A stretch of 64,000 bases of DNA from Eledone cirrhosa (GCA_964016885.1 OZ024760.1:29822001-29886000), one strand, 5' to 3'. Positions 7,854 through 34,099 are shown, counted from the first letter of the stretch. Translations and numbers: made by a program. The notes: a model not told the origin generated them from the letters alone.

Positions 7854-8041
7854 TGTTTCTAATTTAGGAACAAGGGCAGCAATTACCCTGTGCATTACTG
7901 GTACTTTATTTTATCGACCCCATAAGGATGAAAAGCAAAGTCAACCTCGGTGGGATTTGAACTCAGATCGTAAAGGGACGTAACTATGCTGGAAAGCATG
8001 GCGTCCGACCCTCTATCGATACTGCCAATCCACCGCCGTTT
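7854..8041 (-). mobile_element. tRNA-derived SINE-like element, copy 1 (188 bp)
   Basis: Minus strand: GGCGG start, A-box-like TGGCAGTATCGA, B box GAGTTCAAATCCC, Meta-like GCTTTTCATCCTTATGGGGTCGATAAAATAAAGTACCAG, 3' end TAAATTAGAAACA joined to (ATTAC)n. Three private substitutions versus the other copies (+ strand ggAac, cccAta, ctaTcg). Confidence 0.88.
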
Positions 8042-9899
8042 GTAATGTAATGTGTAATGTAATGTAATGTAATGAAAATGTAATGTAATGTGTAATGTAA
8101 TGTGTAATGTAATGTAATGTGTAATGTAATGTAATGTAATGTAATGTAATGTAATGTGTAATGTAATGTAATTTAATGTAATGTAATGAAATGTAATGTT
8201 TAATATAGTGTAATGTAATGTAATGTAATGTAATGTAATGTAATGTTTAATGTAATGTAATGTAATGTAATGTAATCTTTAATGTAATGTAATGTAATGT
8301 AATTTAATGTGTAATGTAATGTAATGTAATGTAAAGTAATGTAGTGTAATGTAATGAAATGTAATGTAATGTGTAATGTAATGTAATGTAATGTAATGTA
8401 ATGTAACGTGTAATGTAATGTAATGTAATGTAATGTGTAATATAATGTAATGTAATGTAATGTAGTGTGTAATGTAATGTAAGGTAATGTGTAATGTAAT
8501 GTAATGTGTAATGTAATGTAATGTAATGTAATATGTAATGTAATGTAATGTTATGTAATGTAATGTAATGTAATGTAATGTAATGTAATGTAATGTAATG
8601 TGTAATGTAATGTAATGTAATGTAATGTAATGTGTAATGTAATGTGTAACGTAATGTAATGTAATGTAATGTGTAATGTAATGTAATGTAATGTAATGTA
8701 ATGTAATGTAATGTGTAATGTAATGTAATTTAATGTAATGTAATGAAATGTAATGTTTAATATAGTGTAATGTAATGTAATGTAATGTAATGTAATGTAA
8801 TGTTTAATGTAATGTAATGTAATGTAATGTAATCTTTAATGTAATGTAATGTAATGTAATGTAATTTAATGTGTAATGTAATGTAATGTAATGTAAAGTA
8901 ATGTAGTGTAATGTAATGAAATGTAATGTAATGTGTAATGTAATGTAATGTAATGTAATGTAACGTGTAATGTAATGTAATATAATGTAATGTGTAATAT
9001 AATGTAATGTAATGTAATGTAGTGTGTAATGTAATGTAAGGTAATGTGTAATGTAATGTAATGTGTAATGTAATGTAATGTAATGTAATATGTAATGTAA
9101 TGTAATGTTATGTAATGTAATGTAATGTAATGTAATGTAATGTAATGTAATGTAATGTGTAACGTAATGTAATGTAATGTAATGTGTAATGTAATGTGTA
9201 ACGTAATGTAATGTAATGTAATGTGTATGTAATGTAATGTAATGTGTAATGTAATGTAATGTAATGTAATGTAATGTAATGTGTAATGTAATGTAATGTA
9301 ACGTGTAATGTAATGTAATGTAATGTAATGTAATGTAATGTGTAATGTAATGTAATGTGTAATGTAATGTAATGTAATGTAATGTAGTGTGTAATGTAAT
9401 GTAATGTAACATGTAATGTAATGTAATGTAATGTAATGTAATGTGTAATGTAATGTAATGTAACGTAATGTAATGTGTAATGTAATGTAATGTAATGTAA
9501 TATAATGAAATGTAATGTAATGTGTAATGTAATGTTATGTAATGTAGTGTGTAATGTAATGTAATGTAATGTAATGTACTGTAATGTGTAATGTAATGTA
9601 ATGTAATGTGTAATGTAATGTAATGTAATATAATGTAATGTAATGTGTAATGTAATGTAATGTAATGTAATGTGTAATGTAATGTAATGTAGTGTGTAAT
9701 GTAATGTAATGTAATATAATGTAATGTAACGTAATCTAATGTAATGTAATGTAATGTAATGTAATGTAAGGTAATGTAATATAATATAATGCGTAATGTA
9801 ATGTAATGTAATGTAATGTGTAATGAAATGTAATGTAATGTAATGTAACGTAATTTAATGTAATGTAATGTAATGTAATGTAATTTGTAATGTAATGTA

Positions 9900-12800
9900 A
9901 TGTAATGTGTAAAGTAATGTAATGGAAAGTGTAATGTAATGTAATGTAATGTCATGTAATGTGTAATGTAATGTGTAATGTAATGTAATGTAATGTAAAG
10001 TAATATATGTAATGTAATGTAATGTAATGTAATGTAAAGTAATATATGTAATGTAATGTAATGTAATGTAATCTAATGTAATGTAATGTAATGTGTAATG
10101 TAATGTAATGTAACGTAATGTAATGTGTAATGTAATGTAATGTGTAATGTAATGTAATGTAATGTAATGTGTAATGTAATGACATGTAATGTAATGTGTA
10201 ATGTAATGTAATGTAATATAATGTAATGTAATGTAACGTGTAATATAATGTAATGTAATGTAACGTGTAATGTAATGTAATGTAATGTAATGTGTAATGT
10301 AATGTAATATAATGTAACGTAATGTAATGTAATGTAATGTGTAATGAAATGTAATGTAATGTAATGTAATGTAATGTAATGTGTAATGTAATGTAATGTG
10401 TAATGTAATGTAATGTAATGTGTAATGTAATGTAATGTAATGTAATGTAATGTGTAATGTAATGTAACGTAATGTAATGTAATGTGTAATGTAATGTAAT
10501 GTAATGTAATGTGTAATGTAATGTAATGTGTAATGTGTAATGTAATGTAATGTAATATAATGTAACGTAATGTAATGTAATGTAATGTGTAATGAAATGT
10601 AATGTAATGTAATGTAATGTAATGTAATGTGTAATGTAATGTAATGTAATGTAGTGTGTAATGTAATGTAATGTGTAATGTAATGTAATGTAATGAAATG
10701 TAATGTAATGTAATGTGTAATGTAATGTAATGTAATGTAATGTGTAAGGTAATGTAATGTAATGTAATGTAATGTGTAATGTAATGTAATGTAATGTAAT
10801 GTGTAATGTAATGTAATGTAATTTGTAATGTACTGTAATCTAATGTACTGTAATGTAATGTAATGTAATGTAATGTAATGTAATGTAATGTGTAATATAA
10901 TGTAATGTAATGTAATGTAGTGTGTAATGTAATGTAAGGTAATGTGTAATGTAATGTAATGTGTAATGTAATGTAATGTAATGTAATATGTAATGTAATG
11001 TAATGTTATGTAATGTAATGTAATGTAATGTAATGTAATGTAATGTAATGTAATGTAATGTAATGTGTAATGTAATGTAATGTAATGTAATGTGTAATGT
11101 AATGTGTAACGTAATGTAATGTAATGTAATGTGTAATGTAATGTAATGTAATGTGTAATGTAATGTAATGTAATGTAATGTAATGTAATGTGTAATGTAA
11201 TGTAATGTAACGTGTAATGTAATGTAATGTAATGTAATGTAATGTAATGTGTAATGTAATGTAATGTGTAATGTAATGTAATGTAATGTAATGTAATGTG
11301 TAATGTAATGTAATGTAACATGTAATGTAATGTAATGTAATGTAATGTAATGTGTAATGTAATGTAATGTAACGTAATGTAATGTGTAATGTAATGTAAT
11401 GTAATGTAATATAATGAAATGTAATGTAATGTGTAAAGTAATGTAATGGAAAGTGTAATGTAATGTAATGTAATGTCATGTAATGTGTAATGTAATGTGT
11501 AATGTAATGTAATGTAATGTAAAGTAATATATGTAATGTAATGTAATGTAATGTAATGTAAAGTAATATATGTAATGTAATGTAATGTAATGTAATCTAA
11601 TGTAATGTAATGTAATGTGTAATGTAATGTAATGTAACGTAATGTAATGTGTAATGTAATGTAATGTGTAATGTAATGTAATGTAATGTAATGTGTAATG
11701 TAATGACATGTAATGTAATGTGTAATGTAATGTAATGTAATATAATGTAATGTAATGTAACGTGTAATATAATGTAATGTAATGTAACGTGTAATGTAAT
11801 GTAATGTAATGTAATGTGTAATGTAATGTAATATAATGTAACGTAATGTAATGTAATGTAATGTGTAATGAAATGTAATGTAATGTAATGTAATGTAATG
11901 TAATGTGTAATGTAATGTAATGTGTAATGTAATGTAATGTAATGTGTAATGTAATGTAATGTAATGTAATGTAATGTGTAATGTAATGTAACGTAATGTA
12001 ATGTAATGTGTAATGTAATGTAATGTAATGTAATGTGTAATGTAATGTAATGTGTAATGTGTAATGTAATGTAATGTAATATAATGTAACGTAATGTAAT
12101 GTAATGTAATGTGTAATGAAATGTAATGTAATGTAATGTAATGTAATGTAATGTGTAATGTAATGTAATGTAATGTAGTGTGTAATGTAATGTAATGTGT
12201 AATGTAATGTAATGTAATGAAATGTAATGTAATGTAATGTGTAATGTAATGTAATGTAATGTAATGTGTAAGGTAATGTAATGTAATGTAATGTAATGTG
12301 TAATGTAATGTAATGTAATGTAATGTGTAATGTAATGTAATGTAATTTGTAATGTACTGTAATCTAATGTACTGTAATGTAATGTAATGTAATGTAATGT
12401 AATGTAATGTAATGTGTAATATAATGTAATGTAATGTAATGTAGTGTGTAATGTAATGTAAGGTAATGTGTAATGTAATGTAATGTGTAATGTAATGTAA
12501 TGTAATGTAATATGTAATGTAATGTAATGTTATGTAATGTAATGTAATGTAATGTAATGTAATGTAATGTAATGTAATGTGTAATGTAATGTAATGTAAT
12601 GTAATGTGTAATGTAATGTGTAACGTAATGTAATGTAATGTAATGTGTAATGTAATGTAATGTAATGTGTAATGTAATGTAATGTAATGTAATGTAATGT
12701 AATGTGTAATGTAATGTAATGTAACGTGTAATGTAATGTAATGTAATGTAATGTAATGTAATGTGTAATGTAATGTAATGTGTAATGTAATGTAATGTAA

Positions 12801-15800
12801 TGTAATGTAATGTGTAATGTAATGTAATGTAACATGTAATGTAATGTAATGTAATGTAATGTAATGTGTAATGTAATGTAATGTAACGTAATGTAATGTG
12901 TAATGTAATGTAATGTAATGTAATATAATGAAATGTAATGTAATGTGTAAAGTAATGTAATGGAAAGTGTAATGTAATGTAATGTAATGTCATGTAATGT
13001 GTAATGTAATGTGTAATGTAATGTAATGTAATGTAAAGTAATATATGTAATGTAATGTAATGTAATGTAATGTAAAGTAATATATGTAATGTAATGTAAT
13101 GTAATGTAATCTAATGTAATGTAATGTAATGTGTAATGTAATGTAATGTAACGTAATGTAATGTGTAATGTAATGTAATGTGTAATGTAATGTAATGTAA
13201 TGTAATGTGTAATGTAATGACATGTAATGTAATGTGTAATGTAATGTAATGTAATATAATGTAATGTAATGTAACGTGTAATATAATGTAATGTAATGTA
13301 ACGTGTAATGTAATGTAATGTAATGTAATGTGTAATGTAATGTAATATAATGTAACGTAATGTAATGTAATGTAATGTGTAATGAAATGTAATGTAATGT
13401 AATGTAATGTAATGTAATGTGTAATGTAATGTAATGTGTAATGTAATGTAATGTAATGTGTAATGTAATGTAATGTAATGTAATGTAATGTGTAATGTAA
13501 TGTAACGTAATGTAATGTAATGTGTAATGTAATGTAATGTAATGTAATGTGTAATGTAATGTAATGTGTAATGTGTAATGTAATGTAATGTAATATAATG
13601 TAACGTAATGTAATGTAATGTAATGTGTAATGAAATGTAATGTAATGTAATGTAATGTAATGTAATGTGTAATGTAATGTAATGTAATGTAGTGTGTAAT
13701 GTAATGTAATGTGTAATGTAATGTAATGTAATGAAATGTAATGTAATGTAATGTGTAATGTAATGTAATGTAATGTAATGTGTAAGGTAATGTAATGTAA
13801 TGTAATGTAATGTGTAATGTAATGTAATGTAATGTAATGTGTAATGTAATGTAATGTAATTTGTAATGTACTGTAATCTAATGTACTGTAATGTAATGTA
13901 ATGTAATGTAATGTAATGTAATGTAATGTGTAATATAATGTAATGTAATGTAATGTAGTGTGTAATGTAATGTAAGGTAATGTGTAATGTAATGTAATGT
14001 GTAATGTAATGTAATGTAATGTAATATGTAATGTAATGTAATGTTATGTAATGTAATGTAATGTAATGTAATGTAATGTAATGTAATGTAATGTAATGTG
14101 TAATGTAATGTAATGTAATGTAATGTGTAATGTAATGTGTAACGTAATGTAATGTAATGTAATGTGTAATGTAATGTAATGTAATGTGTAATGTAATGTA
14201 ATGTAATGTAATGTAATGTAATGTGTAATGTAATGTAATGTAACGTGTAATGTAATGTAATGTAATGTAATGTAATGTGTAATGTAATGTAATGTGTAAT
14301 GTAATGTAATGTAATGTAATGTAATGTGTAATGTAATGTAATGTAACATGTAATGTAATGTAATGTAATGTAATGTAATGTGTAATGTAATGTAATGTAA
14401 CGTAATGTAATGTGTAATGTAATGTAATGTAATGTAATATAATGAAATGTAATGTAATGTGTAATGTAATGTTATGTAATGTAGTGTGTAATGTAATGTA
14501 ATGTAATGTAATGTAATGTACTGTAATGTGTAATGTAATGTAATGTAATGTGTAATGTAATGTAATGTAATATAATGTAATGTAATGTGTAATGTAATGT
14601 AATGTAATGTAATGTGTAATGTAATGTAATGTAGTGTGTAATGTAATGTAATGTAATATAATGTAATGTAACGTAATCTAATGTAATGTAATGTAATGTA
14701 ATGTAATGTAAGGTAATGTAATATAATATAATGCGTAATGTAATGTAATGTAATGTAATGTGTAATGAAATGTAATGTAATGTAATGTAACGTAATTTAA
14801 TGTAATGTAATGTAATGTAATGTAATTTGTAATGTAATGTAATGTAATGTGTAAAGTAATGTAATGGAAAGTGTAATGTAATGTAATGTAATGTCATGTA
14901 ATGTGTAATGTAATGTGTAATGTAATGTAATGTAATGTAAAGTAATATATGTAATGTAATGTAATGTAATGTAATGTAAAGTAATATATGTAATGTAATG
15001 TAATGTAATGTAATCTAATGTAATGTAATGTAATGTGTAATGTAATGTAATGTAACGTAATGTAATGTGTAATGTAATGTAATGTGTAATGTAATGTAAT
15101 GTAATGTAATGTGTAATGTAATGACATGTAATGTAATGTGTAATGTAATGTAATGTAATATAATGTAATGTAATGTAACGTGTAATATAATGTAATGTAA
15201 TGTAACGTGTAATGTAATGTAATGTAATGTAATGTGTAATGTAATGTAATATAATGTAACGTAATGTAATGTAATGTAATGTGTAATGAAATGTAATGTA
15301 ATGTAATGTAATGTAATGTAATGTGTAATGTAATGTAATGTGTAATGTAATGTAATGTAATGTGTAATGTAATGTAATGTAATGTAATGTAATGTGTAAT
15401 GTAATGTAACGTAATGTAATGTAATGTGTAATGTAATGTAATGTAATGTAATGTAATGTAATGTGTAATGTAATGTAATGTGTAATGTGTAATGTAATGT
15501 AATGTAATATAATGTAACGTAATGTAATGTAATGTAATGTGTAATGAAATGTAATGTAATGTAATGTAATGTAATGTAATGTGTAATGTAATGTAATGTA
15601 ATGTAGTGTGTAATGTAATGTAATGTGTAATGTAATGTAATGTAATGAAATGTAATGTAATGTAATGTGTAATGTAATGTAATGTAATGTAATGTGTAAG
15701 GTAATGTAATGTAATGTAATGTAATGTGTAATGTAATGTAATGTAATGTAATGTGTAATGTAATGTAATGTAATTTGTAATGTACTGTAATCTAATGTAC
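9900..15800. repeat. Tandem ~1.5-kb higher-order repeat (3-4 near-identical units); boundaries approximate
   Basis: Rare marker GACATG at 10181, 11705, 13219 and 15123 (periods 1524, 1514, 1904). The identical 77-aa pseudo-ORF recurs at 9952, 11476 and 12990. Confidence 0.85.
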
Positions 15801-15922
15801 TGTAATCTAATGTAATGTAATGTAATGTAATGTAATGTAATGTGTAATGTAATGTAATGTAAAGTGTAATGTAATGTAATGTAATGTGTATTGTAATGTA
15901 ATGTATTGTAATGTAATTTAAT

Positions 15923-16110
15923 TGTTTCTAATTTAGGCACAAGGGCAGCAATTACCCTGTGCATTACTGGTACTTTATTTTATCGACCCCGTAAGGATGA
16001 AAAGCAAAGTTAACCTCGGTGGGATTTGAACTCAGATCGTAAAGGGACGTAACTATGCTGGAAAGCATGGCGTCCGACCCTCTACCGATACTGCCAATCC
16101 ATCGCCGTTT
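15923..16110 (-). mobile_element. tRNA-derived SINE-like element, copy 2
   Basis: Same 188-bp sequence and junctions (tgtttct...gccgttt on +). Private variants gtTaacc and aTcgcc; aatcc subtype. Confidence 0.88.
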
Positions 16111-17568
16111 GTAATGTAATGTAATGTAATGTAATGTAATTTTTAATGTAACGTAATGTAATTTAATGTAATGTAATGTGTAATGTAACGTAATGTAATG
16201 TGTAATGTAATGTGTAATGTAATGTAATGTGTAATGTAATGTAACGTAATTTAATGTAATGTAATGTAATGTAATGTAATTTGTAATGTAATGTAATGTA
16301 ATGTGTAAAGTAATGTAATGGAAAGTGTAACGTAATGTAATGTAATGTAATGTCATGTAATGTGTAATGTAGTGTAATGTAATGTAATGTAATGTAATGT
16401 AATGTAATGTGTAATGTAATGTGTAATGTAATGTAATGTAAAGTAATATATGTAATGTAATGTAATGTAATGTAATCTAATGTAATGTAATGTAATGTGC
16501 AATGTAATGAAATGTAACGTAATGTAATGTGTAATGTAATGTAATGTGTAATGTAATGTAATGTGATGTAATGTAATGTGTAATGTAATGTAATGTAATG
16601 TAATGTAATGTGTAATGTAATGTAATGTGTAATGTAATGTAATGTAATATAATGTAATGTAATGTAATGTAACGTGTAATAAAATGTAATGTAATGTAAT
16701 GTAATGTAATGTAATGTAATGTAATGTAATGTAATCTGTAAGGCAATGTAATGTAATGTAATGTAATGTAATGTAATATAATGTGTAATGTGTAATGTAA
16801 TGTAATGTAATGTGTAATGTAATGTAATGTAATGTGTAATGTAATGTAGTGTGTAATGTAATGTAATGTAATGTAATGTAATTTGTAATGTAATGTAATG
16901 TAATGTAATGTAATGTGTAATGTAATGTAATGTAATGTAATGTAATGTAATGTGTAATGTAATGTAATGTAATGTAATGTAATGTGTAATGTAATGTAAC
17001 GTAATGTAATGTAATGTGTAATGTAATGTAATGTAATGTAATGTGTAATGTAATGTAATGTGTAATGTGTAATGTAATGTAATGTAATATAATGTAATGT
17101 AATGTAATGTGTAATGAAATGTAATGTAATGTAATGTAATGTAATGTAATGTGTAATGTAATGTAATGTAATGTAGTGTGTAATGTAATGTAATGTAATG
17201 TGTAATGTAATGTAATGAAATATAATGTAATGTAATGTGTAATGTAATGTAATGTAATGTAATGTGTAAGGTAATGTAATGTAATGTAATGTGTAATGTA
17301 ATGTAATGTAATCTAATGTGTAATGTAATGTAATGTAATTTAATGTAATGTAATGTAATGTAATGTAATGTAATGTAATGTGTAATGTAAAATAATGTAA
17401 TGTGTAATGTAATGTAATGTAATTTGTAATGTACTGTAATCTAATGTAATGTAATGTAATGTAATGTAATGTGTAATGTAATGTAATGTAATGGCATGTG
17501 TAATGTAATGTGTAATGTAATGTAATGTAATGTGTATTGTAATGTAATGTATTGTAATGTAATGTAAT

Positions 17569-17756
17569 TGTTTCTAATTTAGGCACAAGGGCAGCAATTA
17601 CCCTGTGCATTACTGGTACTTTATTTTATCGACCCCGTAAGGATGAAAAGCAAAGTCAACCTCGGTGGGATTTGAACTCAGATCGTAAAGGGACGTAACT
17701 ATGCTGGAAAGCATGGCGTCCGACCCTCTACCGATACTGCCAAACCACCGCCGTTT
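17569..17756 (-). mobile_element. tRNA-derived SINE-like element, copy 3
   Basis: Same 188-bp sequence and junctions; aaacc subtype; no private variant seen. Confidence 0.88.
17667..17742 (-). promoter_or_regulatory. Internal RNA polymerase III type-2 promoter (A box 17731-17742, B box 17667-17679); equivalent in all eight copies
   Basis: Minus strand TGGCAGTATCGG resembles the A box (TRGCnnAnnnGG) and GAGTTCAAATCCC matches the B box core GTTCRAnnC. Order and spacing are tRNA-like. Activity cannot be shown from sequence. Confidence 0.7.
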
Positions 17757-18249
17757 GTAATGTAATGTAATGTAATGTAATTTTTAATGTAACATAATGT
17801 AATTTAATGTAATGTAATGTTTAATGTAATGTAATATAATGAAAATGTAATGTAATGTGTAATGTAATGTGTAATGTAATGTAATGTAATGTAATGTAAT
17901 GTATTGTAATGTAATGTAATGTAATGTAATGTAATGTGTAATGTAATGTAATGTAATGTAATGTAATGTAATGTAATGTAATGTTTAATGTAGTGTAATG
18001 TAATGAAATGTAATGTAATGTAATGTAATGTAATGTTTAATGTAATGTAATGTAATGTAATGTAATTTTTAATGTAATGTAATGTAATGTAATGTAATGT
18101 AATTTAATGTCTAATGTAATGTAATGTAATGTAATTTAATGTAATGTAGTGTAATGTAATGAAATGTAATGTAATGTGTAATGTAATGTAATGTAATGTA
18201 ATGTAATGTAATGTAATGTAATGTATTGTGTAATGTATTGTAATGTAAT

Positions 18250-18394
18250 TTAATTTAATTTAATTTAATTTAATTTAATTTAATTTAATTTAATTTAATT
18301 TAATTTAATTTAATTTAATTTAATTTAATTTAATTTAATTTAATTTAATTTAATTTAATTTAATTTAATTTAATTTAATTTAATTTAATTTAAT
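18250..18394. repeat. Pure (TTAAT)29 block embedded in register in the GTAAT array
   Basis: 145 bp of uninterrupted TTAAT, followed by an unusually pure (GTAAT)20 at 18395-18494. Confidence 0.96.
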
Positions 18395-20724
18395 GTAATG
18401 TAATGTAATGTAATGTAATGTAATGTAATGTAATGTAATGTAATGTAATGTAATGTAATGTAATGTAATGTAATGTAATGTAATGTAATGTAATGTGATG
18501 TAATGTTTAATGAGATGTAATGTAATGTAATGTAATGTTTAATGTAATGTAATGTGTAATATAATGTAATGTAATGTAATGTGTAATGTAGTGTAATATA
18601 ATGTAATGTAATGTGTAATGTAATGTAATGTAATGTAATGTAATGTAATGTAATGTAATGTGTAATGTAATGTAATGTAATGTGTAATGTAATGTAATGT
18701 AATGTAATGTAATGTAATGTAATGCAATGTAATGTAATGTAATGTAATGTAATGTGTAATGTAATGTAATGTAATGTAATGTAACGTGTAATGTAATGTA
18801 ATGTAATGTAATGTGTAATGTAATGTAATGTAATGTAATGTAATGTAATGTAATGTAATGTGTAATGTAATGTGTAATGTAATGTAATGTAATGTAATGT
18901 AACGTGTAATGTAATGTAATGTAATGTAATGTGTAATGTAATGTAATGTAATGTAATGTAATGTGTAATGTAATGTAATGTAATGTAATGTGTAATGTAA
19001 TGTAATGTAATGTAGTGTGTAATGTAATGTAATGTAATGTAATGTAATGTCCTGTAATGTGTAATGTAATGTAATGTAATGTGTAATGTAATGTAATATA
19101 ATGTAATGTAATGTGTAATGTAATGTAATGTAATGTAATGTGTAATGTAATGTAATGTAATGTAGTGTGTAATGTAATGTAATGTAATGTAATGTAATGT
19201 AATGTAATGTAATGTAATGTAACGTAATGTAATGTAATGTAATGTAATGTAATGTAATGTAATGTAATGTAATGTAATGTAATATAATATAATGCGTAAT
19301 GTAATGTAATGTAATGTAATGTGTAATGTAATGTAATGTAATGTAACGTAATTTAATGTAATGTAATGTAATGTAATGTAATTTGTAATGTAATGTAATG
19401 TGATGTGTAAAGTAATGTAATGGAAAGTGTAATGTAATGTAATGTAATGTCATGCAATGTGTAATGTAGTGTAATGTAATGTAATGTAATGTAATGTAAT
19501 GTGTAATGTAATGTGTAATGTAATGTAATGTAATGTAATGTAAAGTAATATATGTAATGTAATGTAATGTAATGTAAAGTAATATATGTAATGTAATGTA
19601 ATGTAATGTAATCTAATGTAATGTAATGTAATGTGTAATGTAATGTAATGTAACGTAATGTAATGTGTAATGTAATGTAATGTGTAATGTAATGTAATGT
19701 GTAATGTAATGTAATGTAATATAATGTAATGTAATGTAATGTAATGTAATGTAATGTAATGTAACGTGTAATGTAATGTAATGTAATGTAATGTGTAATG
19801 TAATGTAATGTAATGTAATGTAATGTAATGTAATGTAATGTGTAATGTGTAATGTAATGTAATGTAATATGTAATGTAATGTAATGTAATGTGTAATGTA
19901 ATGTAATGTAATGTGTAATGTAATGTAATGTAACGTAATGAAATGTAATGTAATGTAATGTGTAATGTAATGTAATGTAATGTAGTGTGTAATGTAATGT
20001 AATGTAATGTAATGTGTAATGTAATGTAATGTAATGTAATGTAATGTAATGTGTAATGTAATGTAATGTAATGTAATGTGTAATGTAATGTAATGTGTAA
20101 TGTAATATAATGTAACGTAATATAATGTAATGTAATGTGTAATGAAATGTAATGTAATGTAATGTAATGTAATGTAATGTGTAATGTAATGTAATGTAAT
20201 GTAGTGTGTAATGTAATGTAATGTAATGTAATGTGTAATGTAATGTAATGAAATGTAATGTAATTTGTAATGTAATGTAATGTAATGTAATGTGTAAGCT
20301 AATGTAATGTAAGGTAATGTAATGTAATGTGTAATTTAATGTAATGTAATGAAATGTAATGTGTAATGTAATGTAATGTAATTTGTAATGTACTGTAATC
20401 TAATGTAATGTAATGTAATGCAATGGAATGTGTAATGTAATGTGTAATGTAATGTAATGTAATCTAATGTAATATAATGGAATGTGTAATGTAATGTGTA
20501 ATGTACTGTAATCTAATGTAATGTAATGTAATGTAATGGAATGTGTAATGTAATGTACTGTAATCTAATGTAATGTAATGTAATGTAATGGAATGTGTAA
20601 TGTAATGTGTAATGTACTGTAATCTAATGTAATGTAATGTAATGTAATGGAATGTGTAATGTAATGTGTAATGTAAGGTAATGTAATGTGTAATGTAATG
20701 TAATGTATTGTAATGTAATGTAAT

Positions 20725-20912
20725 TGTTTCTAATTTAGGCACAAGGGCAGCAATTACCCTGTGCATTACTGGTACTTTATTTTATCGACCCCGTTAGGAT
20801 GAAAAGCAAAGTCAACCTCGGTGGGATTTGAACTCAGATCGTAAAGGGACGTAACTATGCTGGAAAGCATGGCGTCCGACCCTCTACCGATACTGCCAAT
20901 CCACCGCCGTTT
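20725..20912 (-). mobile_element. tRNA-derived SINE-like element, copy 4
   Basis: Same 188-bp sequence and junctions; private variant ccgtTagg; aatcc subtype. Confidence 0.88.
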
Positions 20913-23003: not shown

Positions 23004-23191
23004 TGTTTCTAATTTAGGCACTAGGGCAGCAATTACCCTGTGCATTACTGGTACTTTATTTTATCGACCCCGTAAGGATGAAAAGCAAAGTCAACCTCTG
23101 TGGGATTTGAACTCAGATCGTAAAGGGACGTAACTATGCTGGAAAGCATGGCGTCCGACCCTCTACCGATACTGCCAATCCACCGCCGTTT
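23004..23191 (-). mobile_element. tRNA-derived SINE-like element, copy 5
   Basis: Same 188-bp sequence and junctions; private variants gcacTagg and cctcTgtgg; aatcc subtype. Confidence 0.88.
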
Positions 23192-24397
23192 GTAATGTAA
23201 TGTAATGTAATGTAATGTAATTTTTAATGTAACGTAATGTAATTTAATGTAATGTAATGTGTAATGTAATGTAATGTAATGAAAATGTAATGTAATGTGT
23301 AATGTAATGTGTAATGTAATGTAATGTGTAATGTAATGTAACGTAATTTAATGTAATGTAATGTAATTTGTAATGTAGTGCAATGTAATGTAATGTAATG
23401 TAATGTAATGTAATGTGTAATGTAATGTGTAATGTAATGTAATGTAATGTAATGTAATGTAATGTAAAGTAATATATGTAATGTAATGTAATGTAAGGTA
23501 ATCTAATGTAATGTAATGTAATGTTTAATGTAATGTAATGTAACGTAATGTAATGCGTAATGTAATGTGTAATGTAATGTAATGTAATATAATGTAATGT
23601 AATGTAATGTAACGTGTAATATAATGTAATGTAATGTAATGTAATGTAATGTAATGTAATGTAATGTGTAAGGTAATGTAATGTAATGTAATGTAATGTG
23701 TAATGTGTAATGTAATGTAATGTAATGTAATGTAATGTGTAATGTAATGTAATGTAATGTAATGTAATGTAATGTAATGTGTAATGTAATGTAATGTAAT
23801 GTAGTGTGTAATGTAATGTAATGTAATGTGTAATGTAATGTAATTTAATGTAATGTGTAATGTAATGTAACGTAATGTAATGTAATGTGTAATGTAATGT
23901 AATGTAATGTGTAATGTATAATGTAATGTAACGTAATATAATTTAATGTAATGTAATGTGTAAAGAAATGTAATGTAATGTAATGTAATGTGTAATGTAA
24001 TGTAATGTAATGTAGTGTGTAATGTAAAGTAATGTGTAATGTAATGTAATGAAATGTAATGTAATGTAATGTGTAATGTAATGTAATGTAATGTAATGTG
24101 TAAGATAATGTAATGTAATGTAATGTGTAATGTAATGTAATGTAATGTAATGTGTAATGTAATGTAATGTAATGTAATGTAATGTAATGTAATGTAATGT
24201 AATGTAATGTAATGTGTAATGTAATGTAATGTGTAATGTAATGTAATGTAATTTGTAATGTACTGTAATCTAATGTAATGTAATGTAATGTAATGTAATG
24301 TGTAATGTAATGTAATGTAATGGAATGTGTAATGTAATGTGTAATGTAATGTAATGTAATGTGTATTGTAATGTAATGTATTGTAATGTAATGTAAT

Positions 24398-24585
24398 TGT
24401 TTCTAATTTAGGCACAAGGGCAGCAATTACCCTGTGCATTACTGGTTCTTTATTTTATCGACCCCGTAAGGATGAAAAGCAAAGTCAACCTCGGTGGGAT
24501 TTGAACTCAGATCGTAAAGGGACGTAACTATGCTGGAAAGCATGGCGTCCGACCCTCTACCGATACTGCCAAACCACCGCCGTTT
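24398..24585 (-). mobile_element. tRNA-derived SINE-like element, copy 6
   Basis: Same 188-bp sequence and junctions; private variant ggtTcttt; aaacc subtype. Confidence 0.88.
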
Positions 24586-27500
24586 GTAATGTAATGTAAT
24601 GTAATGTAATGAAAATGTAATGTAATGTGTAATGTAATGTGTAATGTAATGTAATGTGTAATGTAATGTAATGTAATGTAATGTAATGTAATGTAATGTA
24701 ATGTAATGTAATGTGTAATGTAATGTAATGTAATGTAATGTAATGTAATGTAATGTAATGTTTAATGAAGTGTAATGTAATGTAATGTAATGTAATGTAA
24801 TGTAATGTTTAATGTAATGTAATGTAATGTAATGTAATTTTTAATGTAATGTAATGTAATGTAATGTAATTTAATGAGTAAAGTAATGTAATGTAATGTA
24901 ATGTAATTTAATGTAATGTAGTGTAATGTAATGTGTAATGTAATGTAATGTAATGTAATGTAATGTAATGTAATGTAATGTGTAATGTAATGTAATGTAA
25001 TGTAATGTGTAATGTGTAATGTAATGTAATGTAATGTGTAATGTAATGTAATGTAATGTGTAATGTAATGTAGTGTGTAATGTAATGTAATGTAATGTAA
25101 TGTCATGTAATGTGTAATGTAATGTAATATAATGTAGTGTGTAATGTAATGTAATGTAATGTAATGTGTAATGTAATGTAATGTAATGTAATGTAATGTG
25201 TAATGTAATGTAACGTAATGTAATGTAATGTGTAATGTAATGTAATGTAATGTAATGTAATGTAATGTGTAATGTAATGTAATGTGTAATGTGTAATGTA
25301 ATGTAATGTAATATAATGTAATGTAATGTAATGAAATGTAATGTGTAATGAAATGTAATGTAATGTAATGTAATGTAATGTGTAATGTAATGTAATGTAA
25401 TGTAGTGTGTAATGTAATGTAATGTAATGTAATGTAATGTGTAATGTAATGTAATGTAATGTAATATGTAATGTAATGTAATGTAATGTAATGTGTAATG
25501 TAATGTAATGTAATGTAATGTGTAATGTCATGTAATTTAATGTAATGTAACGTAATGTGTAATGTAATGTAATGTAATTTGTAATGTACTGTAATCTAAT
25601 GTAATGTAATGTAATGTAATGTAATGTGTAATGTAATGTAATGTAATGTAATGGAATGTGTAATGTAATGTGAAAGCTAATGTAATGTAATGTAATGTAA
25701 TGTAATGTAATGTAATGTAATGTAATGTGTAATGTAATGTAATGTAATGTAATGTAATGTAATGTGTAATGTAATGTAATGTAATGTAATGGAATGTGTA
25801 ATGTAATGTGAAAGCTAATGTAATGTAATGTAATGTAATGTAATGTAATGTAATGTAATGTAATGTGTAATGTAATGTAATGTAATGTAATGTAATGTGT
25901 AATGTAATGTAATGTAATGTAATGTAATATATGTAATGTAATGTAATGCAATGTAATGTAATGTGTAATGTAATGTAATGTAATGTGTAATGTAATGTAA
26001 CGTAATGTAATGTAATGTAATGTAATGTGTAATGTAATGTAATCTAATGTGTAATGTAAAGTAATGTAATGTAATGTAATGTAATGTAATGTAATGTGTA
26101 ATGTAATGTAATCTAATGTAGTGTGTAATGTAATGTAATGTTATGTAATGTGTAATGTAATGTAATGTAATGTGTAATGTAATGTAATGTAATGTAATGT
26201 AATGTAATGTGTAATGTAATGTAATGTAATGTAATGTAATGTAATTTAATGTGTAATGTAATGTAATGTGTAATATAATGTAATGTAATGTAATGTAATG
26301 TAATGTGTAATGTAATGTAATGTAATGTAATGTAACGTGTAATGTAATGTAATGTAATGTAATGTGTAATGTAATGTAATGTAATATGTAATGTAATGTA
26401 ATGTAATGTAATGTAATGTAATGTGTAATGTAATGTAATGTAATGTAATGTAATGTGTAATGTAATGTGAAAGCTAATGTAATGTAATGTAATGTGTAAT
26501 GTAATGTAATGTAATGTAATGTAATGTAATGTGTAATGTAATGTAATGTAATGTAATGTGTAATGTAATGTAATGTAATGTATTGTAATGTGTAATGTAA
26601 TGTAATGTGTAATGTAATGTAATGTAATGTAATGTAATGTGTAATGTAATGTAATGTAATGTGTAATGTAATGTAATGTAATGTAACGTGTAATGTAATG
26701 TAATGTAATGTGTAATGTAATGTAATGTAATGTAATGTAATGTGTAATGTAATGTAATGTAATGTAATATAATGTAATGTAATGTAATGTAATGTAATGT
26801 AATGTGTAATGTAATGTAATGTAATGTTATATAATGTAATGGAATGTAATGTAATGTAATATAATGTAATGTAATGTAAAGTGTAATGTAATGTAGTGTG
26901 TAATGTAATGTAATGTAATGTACTGTAATGTGTAATGTAATGTAATGTAATGTGTAATGTAATGTAATGTAATGTGTAATGTAATGTAATGTAATGTGTA
27001 ATGTAATGTAATGTAATGTAATATAATGTAATGTAATGTAATGTAACGTGTAATATAATGTAATGTAATGTAATGTGTAATGTGTAATGTAATGTAATGT
27101 AATGTGTAATGTAATGTAATGTGTAATGTAATGTAGTGTGTAATGTAATGTAATGTAATGTAATGTAATGTAATGTGTAATGTAATGTAATGTAATGTAG
27201 TGTGTAATGTAATGTGTAATGTAATGTAATGTAATGTGTAATGTAATGTAATGTGTAATGTAATGTAATGTAATGTAATGTAATGTGTAATGTAATGTAA
27301 TGTAATATAATGTAATGTAATGTAATGTAATGTGTAATGAAATGTAATGTAACGTAATGTAATGTAATGTAATGTGTAATGTAATGTAATGTAGTGTGTA
27401 ATGTAATGTAATGTGTAATGTGTAATGTAATGTAATGTAATGTAATGTAATTTAATGTAATGTAATGTGTAATGTAATGTAATGTAATGTGTAATGTAAT

Positions 27501-27601
27501 GTAATGTAATTTGTAATGTACTGTAATCTAATGTAATATAATGTAATGTAATGTAATGTGTAATGTAATGTAATGTGTAATGTAATGTAATGTAATGTAA
27601 T

Positions 27602-27789
27602 TGTTTCTAATTTAGGCACAATGGCAGCAATTACCCTGTGCATTACTGGTACTTTATTTTATCGACCCCGTAAGGATGAAAAGCAAAGTCAACCTCGGTG
27701 GGATTTGAACTCAGATCGTAAAGGGACGTAACTATGCTGGAAAGCATGGCGTCCGACCCTCTACCGATACTGCCAAACCACCGCCGTTT
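27602..27789 (-). mobile_element. tRNA-derived SINE-like element, copy 7
   Basis: Same 188-bp sequence and junctions; aaacc subtype with acaaTggc, shared with copy 8. Confidence 0.88.
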
Positions 27790-30700
27790 GTAATGTAATG
27801 TAATGTAATGTAATGTAATGTAATGTAATTTTTAATGTAACGTAATGTAATTTAATGTAATGTAATGTGTAATGTAATGTAATGTAATGAAAATGTAATG
27901 TAATGTGTAATGTAATGTGTAATGTAATGTAATGTGTAATGTAATGTAATGTAATGTAATGTAATGTAATGTAATGTAATGTAATGTTTAATGTAGTGTA
28001 ATGTAATGTAATGTAATGTAATGTAATGTTTAATGTAATGTAATGTAATGTAATGTATTTTTTAATGTAATGTAATGTAATGTAATGTAATGTAATGTAA
28101 TGTAAAGTAATGTGTAATGTAATGTAGTGTAATGTAATGTAATGTAATGTAATGTAATGTAATGTGTAATGTAATGTAATGTAATGTAATGTAATGTAAT
28201 GTAATGTAATGTAATGTGTAATGTAATGTAATGTAATGTATAATGTAATGTAATGTAATGTGTAATGTAATGTAATGTAATGTGTAATGTAATGTAATGC
28301 AATGTAATGTAATGTGTAATGTAATGTAATGTAATGTAATGTAATGTAATGTGTAATGTAATGTAATGTAATGTAGTGTGTAATGTAATGTAATGTAATG
28401 TAGTGTGTAATGTAATGTAATGTAATGTAATGTGTAACGTAATGTGTAATGTAATGTAATGTAACGTAATGTAATGTAATGTAATATAATGTGTAATGTA
28501 ATGTAATGTGTAATGTAATGTAATGTAATTTAATGTAATGTAATGTAATGTGTAATGTAATGTAACGTAATGTGTAATGTAATGTAATGTAATGTAATGT
28601 AATGTAATGTAATGTAATGTAATGTAATGTAATGTGTAATGTAATGTAATGTAATGTAATGTGTAATGTAGTGTAATGTAATGTAATGTAATGTAATGTA
28701 ATGTAATGTAATGTAATGTGTAATGTAATGTGTAATGTAACGTAATGTAATGTAATATATGTAATGTAATGTAATGCAACGTAATGTAATGTGTAATGTA
28801 ATGTAATGTAATGTGTAATGTAATGTAATATATGTAATGTAATGTAATGCAACGTAATGTAATGTGTAATGTAATGTAATGTAATGTGTAATGTAATGTA
28901 ATGTAATGTAATGTGTAATGTAATGTAATCTAATGTAGTGTGTAATGTAATGTAATGTTATGTAATGTGTAATGTAATGTAATGTAATGTGTAATATAAT
29001 GTAATGTAATGTAATATGTAATGTAATGTAATGTAATGTAATGTAATGTAATGTGTAATGTAATGTAATGTAATGTAATGTAATGTAATGTAATGTAATG
29101 TAATGTGTAATGTAATGTGTAACGTAATGTAATGTAATGTAATGTAATGTAATGTAATGTAATGTGTAATGTAATGTAATGTGTAATGTAATGTAATGTA
29201 ATGTAATGTAATGTGTAATGTAATGTAATTTAACGTGTAATGTAATGTAATGTAATGTAATGTGTAATGTAATGTAATGTAATGTAATGTGTAATGTAAT
29301 GTAATGTAATGTAATATAATGTAATGTAATGTAATGTGTAATGTAATGTAATGTAATGTAGTGTGTAATGTAATGTAATGTATTGTAATGTAATGTAATG
29401 TACTGTAATGTGTAATGTAATGTAATGTAATGTGTAATGTAATGTAATGTAATATAATGTAATGTAATGTGTAACGTAATGTAATGTAATGTAATGTGTA
29501 ATGTAATGTAATGTAATGTAGTGTGTAATGTAATGTAATGTAATATAATGTAATGTAACGTAATGTAATGTAATGTAATGTAATGTAATGTAATGTAATA
29601 TAATATAATGCGTAATGTAATATAATATAATGCGTAATGTAATGTAATGTAATGTGTAATGTAATGTAATGTAATGTAATGTAACGTAATTTAATGTAAT
29701 GTAATGTAAATTAATGTAATTTGTAATGTAATGTAATGTAATGTGTAAAGTAATGTAATGGAAAGTGTAACGTAATGTAATGTAATGTAATGTCATGTAA
29801 TGTGTAATGTAGTGTAATGTAATGTAATGTAATGTAATGTAATGTGTAATGTATTGTAATGTAACGTAATGTAATGTGTAATGTAATGTAATGTGTAATG
29901 TAATGTAATGTAATGTAATGTAATGTGTAATGTAATGTAATGTAATGTAATGTGTAACGTGTAATGTAATGTAATGTAATATAATGTAATGTAATGTAAT
30001 GTAACGTGTAATATAATGTAATGTAATGTAATGTAATGTAATGTAATGTAATGTAATGTAATGTAATGTAATGTGTAATGTGTAATGTAATGTAATGTAA
30101 TGTGTAATGTAATGTAATGTAATGTGTAATGTAATGTAGTGTGTAATGTAATATAATGTAATGTAATGTCATGTAATGTGTAATGTAATGTAATATAATG
30201 TAGTGTGTAATGTAATGTAATGTAATGTAATGTGTAATGTAATGTAATGTAATGTAATGTAATGTGTAATGTAATGTAACGTAATGTAATGTAATGTGTA
30301 ATGTAATGTAATGTAATGTAATGTAATGTAATGTAATGTAATGTGTAATGTAATGTAATGTGTTATGTGTAATGTAATGTAATGTAATATAATGTAACGT
30401 AATGTAATGAAATGTAATGTGTAATGAAATGTAATGTAATGTAATGTAATGTAATGTGTAATGTAATGTAATGTAATGTAATGTAATGTAGTGTGTAATG
30501 TAATGTAATGTAATGTAATGTAATGTGTAATGTAATGTAATGTAATGTAATGTGTAATGTAATGTAATGTAATGTAATGTGTAATGTAATGTAATGTAAT
30601 GTAATGTGTAATGTCATGTAATTTAATGTAATGTAATGTAATGTGTAATGTAATGTAATGTAATTTGTAATGTACTGTAATCTAATGTAATGTAATGTAA

Positions 30701-33498
30701 TGTAATGTACTGTGTAATGTAATGTAATGTAATGGAATGTGTAATGTAATGTGAAAGCTAATGTAATGTAATGTAATGTAATGTAATGTAATGTAATGTA
30801 ATGTAATGTGTAATGTAATGTAATGTAATGTAATGTAATGTGTAATGTAATGTAATGTAATGTAATGTAATGTGTAATGTAATGTAATGTGTAATGTAAT
30901 GTAATGTAATGTAATGTAATGTGTAATGTAATGTAATGTAATGTGTAATGTAATGTAATGTAATGTAACGTGTAATGTAATGTAATGTAATGTGTAATGT
31001 AATGTAATGTAATGTAATGTAATGTGTAATGTAATGTAATGTAATGTAATATAATGTAATGTAATGTAATGTAATGTAATGTAATGTAATGTGTAATGTA
31101 ATGTAATGTAATGTAACGTAATTTAATGTAATGTAATGTAATGTAATGTAATTTGTAATGTAATGTAATGTAATGTAATGTGTAAAGTAATGTAATGGAA
31201 AGTGTAATGTAATGTAATGTAATGTAATGTCATGTAATGTGTAATGTAGTGTAATGTAATGTAATGTAATGTAATGTAATGTGTAATGTAATGTAACGTA
31301 ATGTAATGTGTAATGTAATGTAATGTGTAATGTAATGTAATGTAATGTGTAATGTAATCTAATGTAATGTAATGTGTAATGTAATGTAATGTGTAATGTA
31401 ATGTAATGTAATATAATGTAATGTAATGTAATGTAACGTGTAATATAATGTAATGTAATGTAATGTAATGTAATGTAATGTAATGTGATGTGTAATGTGT
31501 AATGTAATGTAATGTAATGTGTAATGTAATGTAATGTAATGTGTAATGTAATGTAGTGTGTAATGTAATGTAATGTAATGTAATGTAATGTAATGTAATG
31601 TGTAATGTAATGTAATGTAATGTAGTGTGTAATGTAATGTAATGTAATGTGTAATGTAATGTAATGTAATGTAATGTAATGTGTAATGTAATGTAATGTG
31701 TAATGTAATGTAATGTAATGTAATGTGTAATGTAATGTAATGTAATGTAATGTAATATATGTAATGTAATGTAATGCAATGTAATGTAATGTGTAATGTA
31801 ATGTAATGTAATGTGTAATGTAATGTAACGTAATGTAATGTAATGTAATGTGTAATGTAATGTAATCTAATTTGTAATGTAAAGTAATGTAATGTAATGT
31901 AATGTAATGTAATGTAATGTAATGTGTAATGTAATGTAATCTAATGTAGTGTGTAATGTAATGTAATGTTATGTAATGTGTAATGTAATGTAATGTAATG
32001 TGTAATGTAATGTAATGTAATGTAATGTAATGTAATGTGTAATGTAATGTAATGTAATGTAATGTAATGTAATTTAATGTGTAATGTAATGTAATGTGTA
32101 ATATAATGTAATGTAATGTAATGTAATGTAATGTGTAATGTAATGTAATGTAATGTAATGTAACGTGTAATGTAATGTAATGTAATGTAATGTGTAATGT
32201 AATGTAATGTAATATGTAATGTAATGTAATGTAATGTAATGTAATGTAATGTAATGTGTAATGTAATGTAATGTAATGTAATGTAATGTGTAATGTAATG
32301 TGAAAGCTAATGTAATGTAATGTAATGTGTAATGTAATGTAATGTAATGTAATGTAATGTAATGTAATGTGTAATGTAATGTAATGTAATGTAATGTGTA
32401 ATGTAATGTAATGTAATGTAATGTAATGTGTAATGTAATGTAATGTGTAATGTAATGTAATGTAATGTAATGTAATGTGTAATGTAATGTAATGTAATGT
32501 GTAATGTAATGTAATGTAACGTGTAATGTAATGTAATGTAATGTGTAATGTAATGTAATGTAATGTAATGTAATGTGTAATGTAATGTAATGTAATGTAA
32601 TATAATGTAATGTAATGTAATGTAATGTAATGTAATGTAATGTAATGTAATGTGTAATGTAATGTAATGTAATGTTATATAATGTAATGTAATGTAATGT
32701 AATGTAATATAATGTAATGTAATGTAATGTGTAATGTAATGTAGTGTGTAATGTAATGTAATGTACTGTAATGTGTAATGTAATGTAATGTAATGTGTAA
32801 TGTAATGTAATGTAATGTGTAATGTAATGTAATGTAATGTGTAATGTAATGTAATGTAATGTAATATAATGTAATGTAATGTAATGTAACGTGTAATATA
32901 ATGTAATGTAATGTAATGTAATGTAATGTAATGTGTAATGTGTAATGTAATGTAATGTAATGTGTAATGTAATGTAATGTGTAATGTAATGTAGTGTGTA
33001 ATGTAATGTAATGTAATGTAATGTAATGTGTAATGTAATGTAATGTAATGTAGTGTGTAATGTAATGTGTAATGTAATGTAATGTAATGTGTAATGTAAT
33101 GTAATGTGTAATGTAATGTAATGTAATGTAATGTGTAATGTAATGTAATGTGTAATGTAATGTAATGTAATATAATGTAATGTAATGTAATGTAATGTAA
33201 TGTGTAATGAAATGTAATGTAACGTAATGTAATGTAATGTAATGTGTAATGTAATGTAATGTAGTGTGTAATGTAATGTAATGTGTAATGTGTAATGTAA
33301 TGTAATGTAATGTAATGTAATGTAATTTAATGTAATGTAATGTGTAATGTAATGTAATGTAATGTGTAATGTAATGTAATGTAATTTGTAATGTACTGTA
33401 ATCTAATGTAATATAATGTAATGTAATGTAATGTGTAATGTAATGTGTAATGTAATGTAATGTAATGTAATGTGTAATGTAATGTAATGTAATGTAAT

Positions 33499-33686
33499 TG
33501 TTTCTAATTTAGGCACAATGGCAGCAATTACCCTGTGCATTACTGGTACTTTATTTTATCGACCCCGTAAGGATGAAAAGCAAAGTCAACCTCGGTGGGA
33601 TTTGAACTCAGATCGTAAAGGGACGTAACTATGCTGGAAAGCATGGCGTCCGACCCTCTACCGATACTGCCAAACCACCGCCGTTT
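33499..33686 (-). mobile_element. tRNA-derived SINE-like element, copy 8
   Basis: Appears identical to copy 7 by eye and lies 5897 bp downstream with matching flanking variants. Confidence 0.88.
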
Positions 33687-34099
33687 GTAATGTAATGTAA
33701 TGTAATGTAATGTAATGTAATGTAATTTTTAATGTAACGTAATGTAATTTAATGTAATGTAATGTGTAATGTAATGTAATGTAATGAAAATGTAATGTAA
33801 TGTGTAATGTAATGTGTCATGTAATGTAATGTGTAATGTAATGTAATGTAATGTAATGTAATGTAATGTAATGTTTAATGTAGTGTAATGTAATGTAATG
33901 TAATGTAATGTATTTTTTAATGTAATGTAATGTAATGTAATGTAATGTAATGTAAAGTAATGTGTAATGTAATGTAGTGTAATGTAATGTAATGTAATGT
34001 AATGTAATGTAATGTAATGTGTAATGTAATGTAATGTAATGTAATGTAATGTAATGTAATATAATGTAATGTGTAATGTAATGTAATGTAATGTAATGT

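What the first reader, a model, noticed from the sequence alone, without database searches (positions are those of the whole stretch)
7854..33686. One SINE insertion captured and amplified inside a simple satellite, forming a composite SINE+(ATTAC)n repeat
Seen: eight 188-bp copies, same orientation, same length, base-identical junctions and 0-3 private substitutions each. Spacing is irregular (8069, 1646, 3156, 2279, 1394, 3204, 5897 bp). The copies share rare flanking satellite variants: AATTTGTAATGTACTGTAATCTAAT on the left of all eight, GTATT doublets on the left of most, and ATTTTTAAT and/or GAAAAT on the right. Known: independent retrotranspositions would not share flanks. Inference: a single insertion was copied by unequal exchange or replication-based duplication of kb-scale satellite blocks, giving a tandem cluster of Pol III promoter cassettes in heterochromatin-like DNA.
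Basis: partly seen in the sequence, partly recalled or inferred. Interest (0 to 1): 0.75.

Follow-up and report, generated by a model that had tools for sequence, protein, structure and literature searches.

The report
Satellite repeatedly hit by one-way SINEs
The eight copies are part of a set of 77 near-identical short jumping-gene copies that most likely descend from one insertion duplicated along with a 1.3-million-base simple repeat, and the same repeat holds an estimated 18 separate insertions of this element, all facing one way, likely because one strand of the repeat nearly matches the element's preferred landing site; similar cases are known from humans and a plant.

Summary
It lies in a single-orientation (GTAAT)n array of about 1.296 Mb, nearly the only long one in the assembly. 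The array holds 170 copies of a young, genome-wide SINE, all on one strand. The eight window copies belong to one lineage of 77. That lineage shares private substitutions, one 5' junction and a relic 17-bp target-site duplication (TSD), and its haplotype is confined to the array (57 of 58 matches). So 'one insertion, then amplified' holds for these eight. The other 93 copies come from about 17 further insertions (tree: one origin rejected, p-AU 0.0003; 8 of 23 groups keep TSDs with variant monomers, against 1.9% by chance). Dispersed copies insert at Y|ATTA(T/A). The array offers 210,619 YATTA sites on one strand and 53 on the other, which explains the shared strand and 3' phase. Founders favour the rare ATTAT monomer about 19-fold, close to the roughly 25-fold genome-wide preference. 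It is not a hotspot and not a regular composite unit (SINE 2.2% of the array). Precedents: Alu in human Yq12, LINEs in Cuscuta satellite. No earlier scan note covered this locus.

The parts
1..64000 (.). (GTAAT)n / (ATTAC)n simple satellite with variant monomers; part of a single-orientation array of about 1.296 Mb (G000:C21:29,659,554-30,955,844)
   Evidence: 13,841 of 13,909 genome-wide (GTAAT)8 matches lie in it
7854..8039 (-). SINE copy 1 of lineage A (184-bp element plus 2 extra 5' bases)
15923..16108 (-). SINE copy 2, lineage A
17569..17754 (-). SINE copy 3, lineage A
20725..20910 (-). SINE copy 4, lineage A
23004..23189 (-). SINE copy 5, lineage A
24398..24583 (-). SINE copy 6, lineage A
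27602..27787 (-). SINE copy 7, lineage A (element identical to copy 8)
33499..33684 (-). SINE copy 8, lineage A
17552..17568 (-). 3' copy of the relic 17-bp target-site duplication, (ATTAC)3AA, which runs into the 'GTATT' variant monomer (shown for copy 3)
   Evidence: found on both sides in 50 of 77 lineage copies; on both sides in 4 of 8 window copies
17755..17771 (-). 5' copy of the same 17-bp duplication (copy 3)
17731..17742 (-). A-box-like motif (copy 3); motif form recalled from Pol III promoter consensus
   Evidence: unchanged in 73 of 77 lineage copies
17668..17679 (-). B-box-like motif (copy 3); motif form recalled
   Evidence: intact in 73 of 77 lineage copies
17646..17649 (-). lineage-specific TTTT (substitution at element position 104), a possible Pol III terminator; absent from the family majority
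   Evidence: 70 of 77 lineage copies, 0 of 93 other array copies
18245..18391 (+). (TTAAT)n run: local expansion of a variant monomer

Best explanation
A very abundant young SINE inserts at Y|ATTA(T/A) and leaves a duplication of about 16 bp, and it has likely landed about 18 separate times in a 1.3-Mb (ATTAC)n array, always on the same strand because the array offers that motif on one strand only, after which some insertions were likely duplicated passively with kb-scale blocks of the array. The eight window copies are part of the most expanded lineage (77 copies over 744 kb), inferred to descend from one insertion whose 17-bp duplication still survives. Shown: copy numbers, strand, target motif, TSDs, lineage structure. 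Inferred: target-primed reverse transcription by an unidentified LINE enzyme; block duplication by unequal exchange, slippage or conversion; passive (neutral) spread. The array is a near-match target rather than an ideal one: ATTAT is preferred about 25-fold over ATTAC per site, and the founders sit disproportionately on the rare ATTAT monomers.
For: Array: 170 of 170 copies on one strand, against 14,054 forward / 14,109 reverse genome-wide. Target: TSD found in 44 of 59 dispersed copies; among the 43 aligned, position -1 is C/T in 41, ATTA is nearly invariant, and +4 is T 38, A 5, C 0. YATTA sites in the array: 210,619 on the SINE-sense strand, 53 on the other. One lineage: 77 copies, clade support 100/97, haplotype 57 of 58 in the array, 17-bp TSD in 50 of 77, Mantel rho 0.36, p 0.0005, 6.5-kb blocks that differ by only 3-5 substitutions. 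Many origins: 24 groups by 5' junction, truncation and diagnostics; the tree needs 13 changes and rejects one clade at p-AU 0.00026; 8 of 23 groups have a TSD with a non-canonical monomer, against 96 of 5000 control sites (p 7e-9). ATTAT: 61,873 vs 1,064 genome-wide on a 1,976:845 background, about 25-fold; 9 of 22 founders vs 3.4% of array sites, about 19-fold.
Against: The founder count is soft: 24 groups, 18 after cautious merging, and only 4 changes are forced by well-supported branches. Some 5'-truncated copies could be deletions inside the array. Part of the ATTAT excess may come from the element's own tail; ATTAT is in the 5' TSD copy in only 5 of the 9 (still p 7e-4). Flank similarity within the lineage is only slightly above background across the whole array (median distance 21.1 vs 23.6). 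No partner LINE was found: the CR1-like and RTE-like families examined (30 loci each) do not share the 3' end. No read set confirmed the SINE-satellite junction, so copy numbers rest on one assembly. The background used for site counts comes from loci near repeats and is not a random genome sample.
Confidence: 0.85

Rival explanations
1. One single insertion gave rise to all SINE copies in the array; differences arose by mutation, deletion and gene conversion from dispersed copies.
For: All 170 copies share strand and 3' phase; two lineages have similar 5' junctions (ACAAAC and ACAAAT).
Against: One clade rejected (p-AU 0.00026); three sampled copies fall in an older subfamily and two group with the youngest dispersed variant. 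Distinct TSDs that duplicate different rare monomers. Distinct 5' truncation points.
Confidence: 0.04
2. The eight window copies are independent, sequence-specific insertions from one source gene that targets this satellite.
For: The family has a target preference that the satellite nearly matches, and independent insertions do exist in the array.
Against: The same 17-bp TSD and 2 extra bases in 50 of 77 copies; shared flank variants up to 1 kb; haplotype absent outside the array apart from one diverged chance match; nested sub-lineages that are clustered by position.
Confidence: 0.03
3. The array SINEs are functional one-way Pol III promoters that make strand-specific satellite RNA, or selection favoured the lineage whose new TTTT stops such read-through.
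For: A and B boxes are intact in 73 of 77 lineage copies. For many other copies the next TTTT on the sense strand is kilobases away or beyond 20 kb. The largest lineage carries a new internal TTTT (70 of 77), and a 10-copy lineage has one 5 nt downstream in 8 of 10.
Against: A 23-copy lineage expanded with no nearby TTTT. Expansion is patchy and local, as expected for neutral drift of blocks. There are no expression data.
Confidence: 0.12
4. The block structure and copy number are partly assembly artefacts of a low-complexity array.
For: Low complexity; 6.5-kb blocks over 99% alike; no read-level confirmation of the junctions.
Against: 47 of 77 elements and 74 of 77 element-plus-500-bp contexts are distinct; nested diagnostic substitutions and clean array ends in unique DNA. 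An artefact would not create different TSDs.
Confidence: 0.08

Closest known systems
Alu insertions amplified inside human Yq12 DYZ arrays (bioRxiv 10.1101/2022.12.01.518658; passages read)
   Same: Several independent SINE insertions into satellite arrays, some then expanded with the repeat units by slippage, non-allelic recombination or conversion.
   Different: Four Alu insertions there, about 18 here; the passages I read report no single-strand polarity or target-motif test; here the monomer itself is a near-target and amplification reaches 77 copies.
CUS-TR24 satellite with L1-CS LINE insertions in Cuscuta europaea (PMC8091179; passages and section 3.4 read)
   Same: The satellite monomer supplies the target site, insertions are oriented and come from several masters, and segmental duplication follows.
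   Different: A LINE in a 389-bp monomer at many loci in a plant, against a non-autonomous SINE in a 5-bp monomer at one locus; there the array is fragmented and has inversions, here it keeps one orientation for 1.3 Mb.
Human DYZ2 (HSat1B) composite repeat (described in the passage read)
   Same: A SINE-derived piece carried within amplified simple repeats.
   Different: DYZ2 is a regular 2.4-kb unit; here the spacing is irregular, the SINE is 2.2% of the array, and one stretch alone has a regular 6.5-kb unit.
SINE-derived satellites of squamates (PMC10702118; abstract and outline only)
   Same: SINE sequence amplified in tandem context.
   Different: There the monomer is a piece of the SINE; here whole SINEs ride in a simple repeat that is not SINE-derived as far as shown.
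RTE-mobilised bipartite SINEs and the Tn-TA insertion signature (PMC5786205, parts 1-2 of 5 read; PMC13295347, sections 3 and 4.1 read)
   Same: TSD starts at a fixed A after a pyrimidine; microsatellite-like tail. From recall only, the middle part resembles RTE 5'-UTR-derived SINE bodies and the element resembles octopus tRNA SINEs.
   Different: No clear T-stretch 10 nt upstream in 43 sites; the conserved motif is longer (Y|ATTA-T); no RTE partner with a shared 3' end was found.

Membership tests
SINE (non-autonomous, TPRT-mobilised) | Short, non-coding, high-copy and dispersed | tested here: met
   183 bp; 28,163 exact 32-mer matches, strands balanced; 40 best hits 98-100% identical on many contigs
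SINE (non-autonomous, TPRT-mobilised) | Variable-length TSDs, fixed 3' end, 5' truncations | tested here: met
   TSD of 8-24 bp in 44 of 59 dispersed copies; truncated 5' ends
tRNA-derived SINE (SINE2) | Internal A and B boxes | tested here: met
   Motifs present (consensus recalled), unchanged in 73 of 77 lineage copies; positions 1-5 pair with the segment after the B box in the predicted fold (z -1.97)
tRNA-derived SINE (SINE2) | Head homologous to a specific tRNA | tested here: inconclusive
   No ARAGORN or Rfam tRNA hit; alignment to 14 of the 16 tRNA-like loci returned gave z at most 2.9, confined to the boxes
tRNA-derived SINE (SINE2) | Transcription by Pol III | not testable with these tools
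   No RNA run was available to lay
RTE-mobilised bipartite SINE | 3' end and middle shared with an RTE LINE of the same genome | tested here: inconclusive
   Not shared with the RTE-like family in 30 DUF6451 loci or the CR1-like family in 30 RT loci; other LINE families were not sampled
RTE-mobilised bipartite SINE | Tn-TA signature (T-stretch about 10 nt upstream of the TSD) | tested here: not met
   No T3 peak in the 43-site matrix; position -10 is mostly A
Named octopus SINEs (OK/OR1/OR2) or a Repbase/Dfam family | Sequence identity to the published consensus | not testable with these tools
   No repeat library available; papers read name the families without sequences; resemblance is recalled only
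Retroelement insertion amplified with a satellite (Yq12 Alu type) | One TSD and junction shared by many copies confined to the array | tested here: met
Satellite-targeted retroelement (Cuscuta L1-CS type) | Independent insertions at a fixed phase and strand of the monomer | tested here: met
Satellite-targeted retroelement (Cuscuta L1-CS type) | Enrichment of insertions in the satellite over the genome | tested here: not met
   About 18 founders in 1.3 Mb, against roughly 85 expected from per-site rates (my arithmetic); the family is dispersed genome-wide
Regular composite repeat (DYZ2 type) | Fixed unit length containing the SINE | tested here: not met
   Spacing from under 1 kb to 175 kb; only one 6.5-kb unit repeated about three times

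The most novel reading that the evidence does not exclude
The array grew from an (ATTAT)n microsatellite, the SINE's ideal target and tail, and the T-to-C shift to (ATTAC)n cut insertion about 25-fold. It now works as a polarised SINE trap whose 170 co-oriented Pol III cassettes can read into terminator-poor DNA and make strand-specific satellite RNA, with the most expanded lineage favoured because its new internal TTTT shuts that read-through off.
Probability: 0.12. Interest if true: 0.7.

Novelty: new variant of a known kind. Interest (0 to 1): 0.42.

Why it matters
The array is a natural tape recorder. About 18 insertions with their own junctions mark positions in an otherwise featureless 1.3-Mb pentamer array. 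Their copy numbers (1 to 77), nested mutations and positions show how far and in what block sizes a simple satellite duplicates and spreads, which is hard to measure otherwise. It also gives a clean, quantitative target rule for a very abundant SINE whose LINE partner is unknown (Y|ATTA-T, about 25-fold over ATTAC), confirmed inside the array. And it warns that same strand and same 3' junction do not prove single origin in satellites. The processes themselves are known.

Tried and rejected
ARAGORN and Rfam on the element: no tRNA or other family (a U2 hit at E 0.06 and a SECIS hit at E 0.7 were treated as chance). tRNA alignment of the head: inconclusive. Partner LINE: two families examined, neither shares the tail. 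Sequencing runs: no RNA holder listed. Contigs of four runs show the family is abundant in organisms A and B, but no contig reached the satellite side of the junction; one 36-nt contig in X1 (depth 35.8, neighbours 4-5) carries lineage alleles, and X1 may be the assembly's own sample, so I count this as no evidence. 'The SINE at the right end seeded the array': rejected, because that copy has its own 14-15 bp TSD and satellite-like bases continue on its 5' side. 'Array copies export (ATTAC)n tails by read-through': the two off-array copies with such tails are diverged or truncated and sit in local (ATTAT)n/(ATTAC)n microsatellites. 'The array is a hotspot': not supported. 'The 11 SINE-free copies of the left 25-mer are empty pre-insertion sites': their downstream monomers do not match the SINE flanks. 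Literature searches for a description of this array or SINE found none; the library lacks most subscription papers, including the 1994 octopus SINE paper. Supplements were not seen (PMC5786205 alignments, the bioRxiv Yq12 supplement) and may bear on family identity and on orientation in Yq12.

Full report
Observation. The window is 64 kb of (GTAAT)n with variant monomers, interrupted by eight copies of one element at the stated places and spacings. The copies differ at 11 of 190 columns. Read on the minus strand, the element has A- and B-box-like motifs (consensus recalled) and ends in ...AGAAAC followed by ATT.

Context. The window is G000:C21:29,822,001-29,886,000. I read the whole array: it runs from about 29,659,554 to 30,955,844 (1.296 Mb), keeps one orientation and ends in unrelated DNA on both sides. 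It holds 13,841 of the genome's 13,909 (GTAAT)8 matches. The element is a large dispersed family: 28,163 exact matches to an internal 32-mer, 14,054 forward and 14,109 reverse, with copies 98-100% alike on many contigs. That the host is an octopus is recalled resemblance plus other agents' notes, not a test.

The eight copies are one lineage. The array holds 170 copies, all on one strand. Seventy-seven, from 29.729 to 30.474 Mb and including the window's eight, share a 5' junction and diagnostic substitutions. The 11 sampled form a clade (100/97). A three-site haplotype matches 58 times in the genome, 57 in the array and once in a diverged copy. Element and flank distances correlate (rho 0.36, p 0.0005), although flank similarity over the whole lineage is only slightly above background (21.1 vs 23.6). 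Blocks of 6.5 kb differ by 3-5 substitutions plus slippage gaps, and 74 of 77 contexts are distinct. One insertion copied with kb-scale blocks is well supported; the exact copying mechanism is inferred.

The array was hit many times. The other 93 copies form 23 groups by junction, truncation and diagnostics; merging six that may share a founder or be deletion products leaves 18 founders in all. In a tree of 32 array and 81 dispersed full-length copies, the array label needs 13 changes (11-13 in bootstraps, 4 forced by strong branches) and one clade is rejected (p-AU 0.00026); truncated and deleted copies were left out of that tree. Eight of 23 groups tested keep a TSD that duplicates a non-canonical monomer, against 96 of 5000 control sites. 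Eighteen insertions on one strand by chance would have p about 8e-6 (arithmetic).

Why one strand. Dispersed copies have TSDs (44 of 59) that start with ATTA after C or T, followed by T or A and never C in 43 sites. The array has 210,619 YATTA sites on the SINE-sense strand and 53 on the other. Genome-wide the 3' end is followed by ATTAT 61,873 times and ATTAC 1,064 times on a 1,976:845 background, about 25-fold per site. In the array 9 of 22 groups (counted by hand) sit on ATTAT, which is 3.4% of sites, about 19-fold. In 5 of the 9 the ATTAT is in the 5' duplicate too, so it is not only tail (p 7e-4). The satellite is thus a near-target. Per-site rates predict roughly 85 insertions for an array of this size (arithmetic, biased background) against about 18 seen, so it is no hotspot and probably expanded during the family's activity.

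Function. Nothing here shows a job. The boxes are intact in 73 of 77 lineage copies, 70 of 77 carry a new internal TTTT, and many other copies face kilobases without TTTT. A 23-copy lineage expanded without a terminator, which argues against selection on it. Both array ends are rich in ATTAT runs, and several short (ATTAC)n runs elsewhere lie inside (ATTAT)n microsatellites, so an origin from (ATTAT)n is plausible but not shown.

Comparison. Alu insertions that expanded with human Yq12 repeats (passages) and oriented LINE insertions into a Cuscuta satellite with later duplication cover both processes. The element works like an RTE-type tRNA SINE, but membership is open: no tRNA source, no partner LINE among two families, no Tn-TA T-stretch. 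Seven searches found no description of this array.

Verdict. Its value lies in the quantitative target rule and in the set of internal markers for satellite turnover. Interest 0.42.

Noticed in passing
L251 (G000:C5:120,791,500-120,793,500), about 890-1020: A 5'-truncated copy of this SINE has a (GTAAT)9 run attached at its 5' end, inside an apparent TSD and starting at the element's internal GTAAT; the element may seed this pentamer by slippage during reverse transcription (opposite strand to the array case).
   Followed up: partly
G000:C21:30,346,505-30,346,582 (L087): A 77-bp fragment of a different repeat with a short tandem tail is inserted in the array, also joining an ATTA site; from recall it resembles another octopus SINE.
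   Followed up: no
G000:C21:30,113,000-30,325,000: Sub-domains of the array where the variants (GCAAT)n and (GTAAC)n expand in repeating kb-scale blocks; (ATAAT)n runs dominate 30.47-30.59 Mb and both array ends.
   Followed up: no
G000:C21:29,729,490-29,786,352: A sub-lineage of the 77 with nested deletions (8 bp in about 14 copies, a further 27 bp in 7), showing stepwise decay and re-amplification at the left end.
   Followed up: partly
G000:C21:30,588,069-30,650,706: Six copies truncated at both ends (element positions 67-144) whose 3' end joins the satellite at the element's internal AAT; internal priming or deletion.
   Followed up: partly
G000:C1:12,133,868-12,138,703: Four co-oriented copies 1-2.3 kb apart, each followed by ATTAC; possibly another small tandem amplification.
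   Followed up: no
L254-L283: An abundant young CR1-like LINE with many open 945-aa frames and an (ATT)n tail; this SINE inserts into its 3' UTR at the same YATTAT site in at least three loci (L222, L223, L277).
   Followed up: partly
window 18245-18391: A pure (TTAAT)n run of about 146 bp inside the satellite.
   Followed up: no
G000:C21:30,956,100-30,957,300: A (CT)n/TAGAT-type low-complexity block directly beyond the right end of the array.
   Followed up: no
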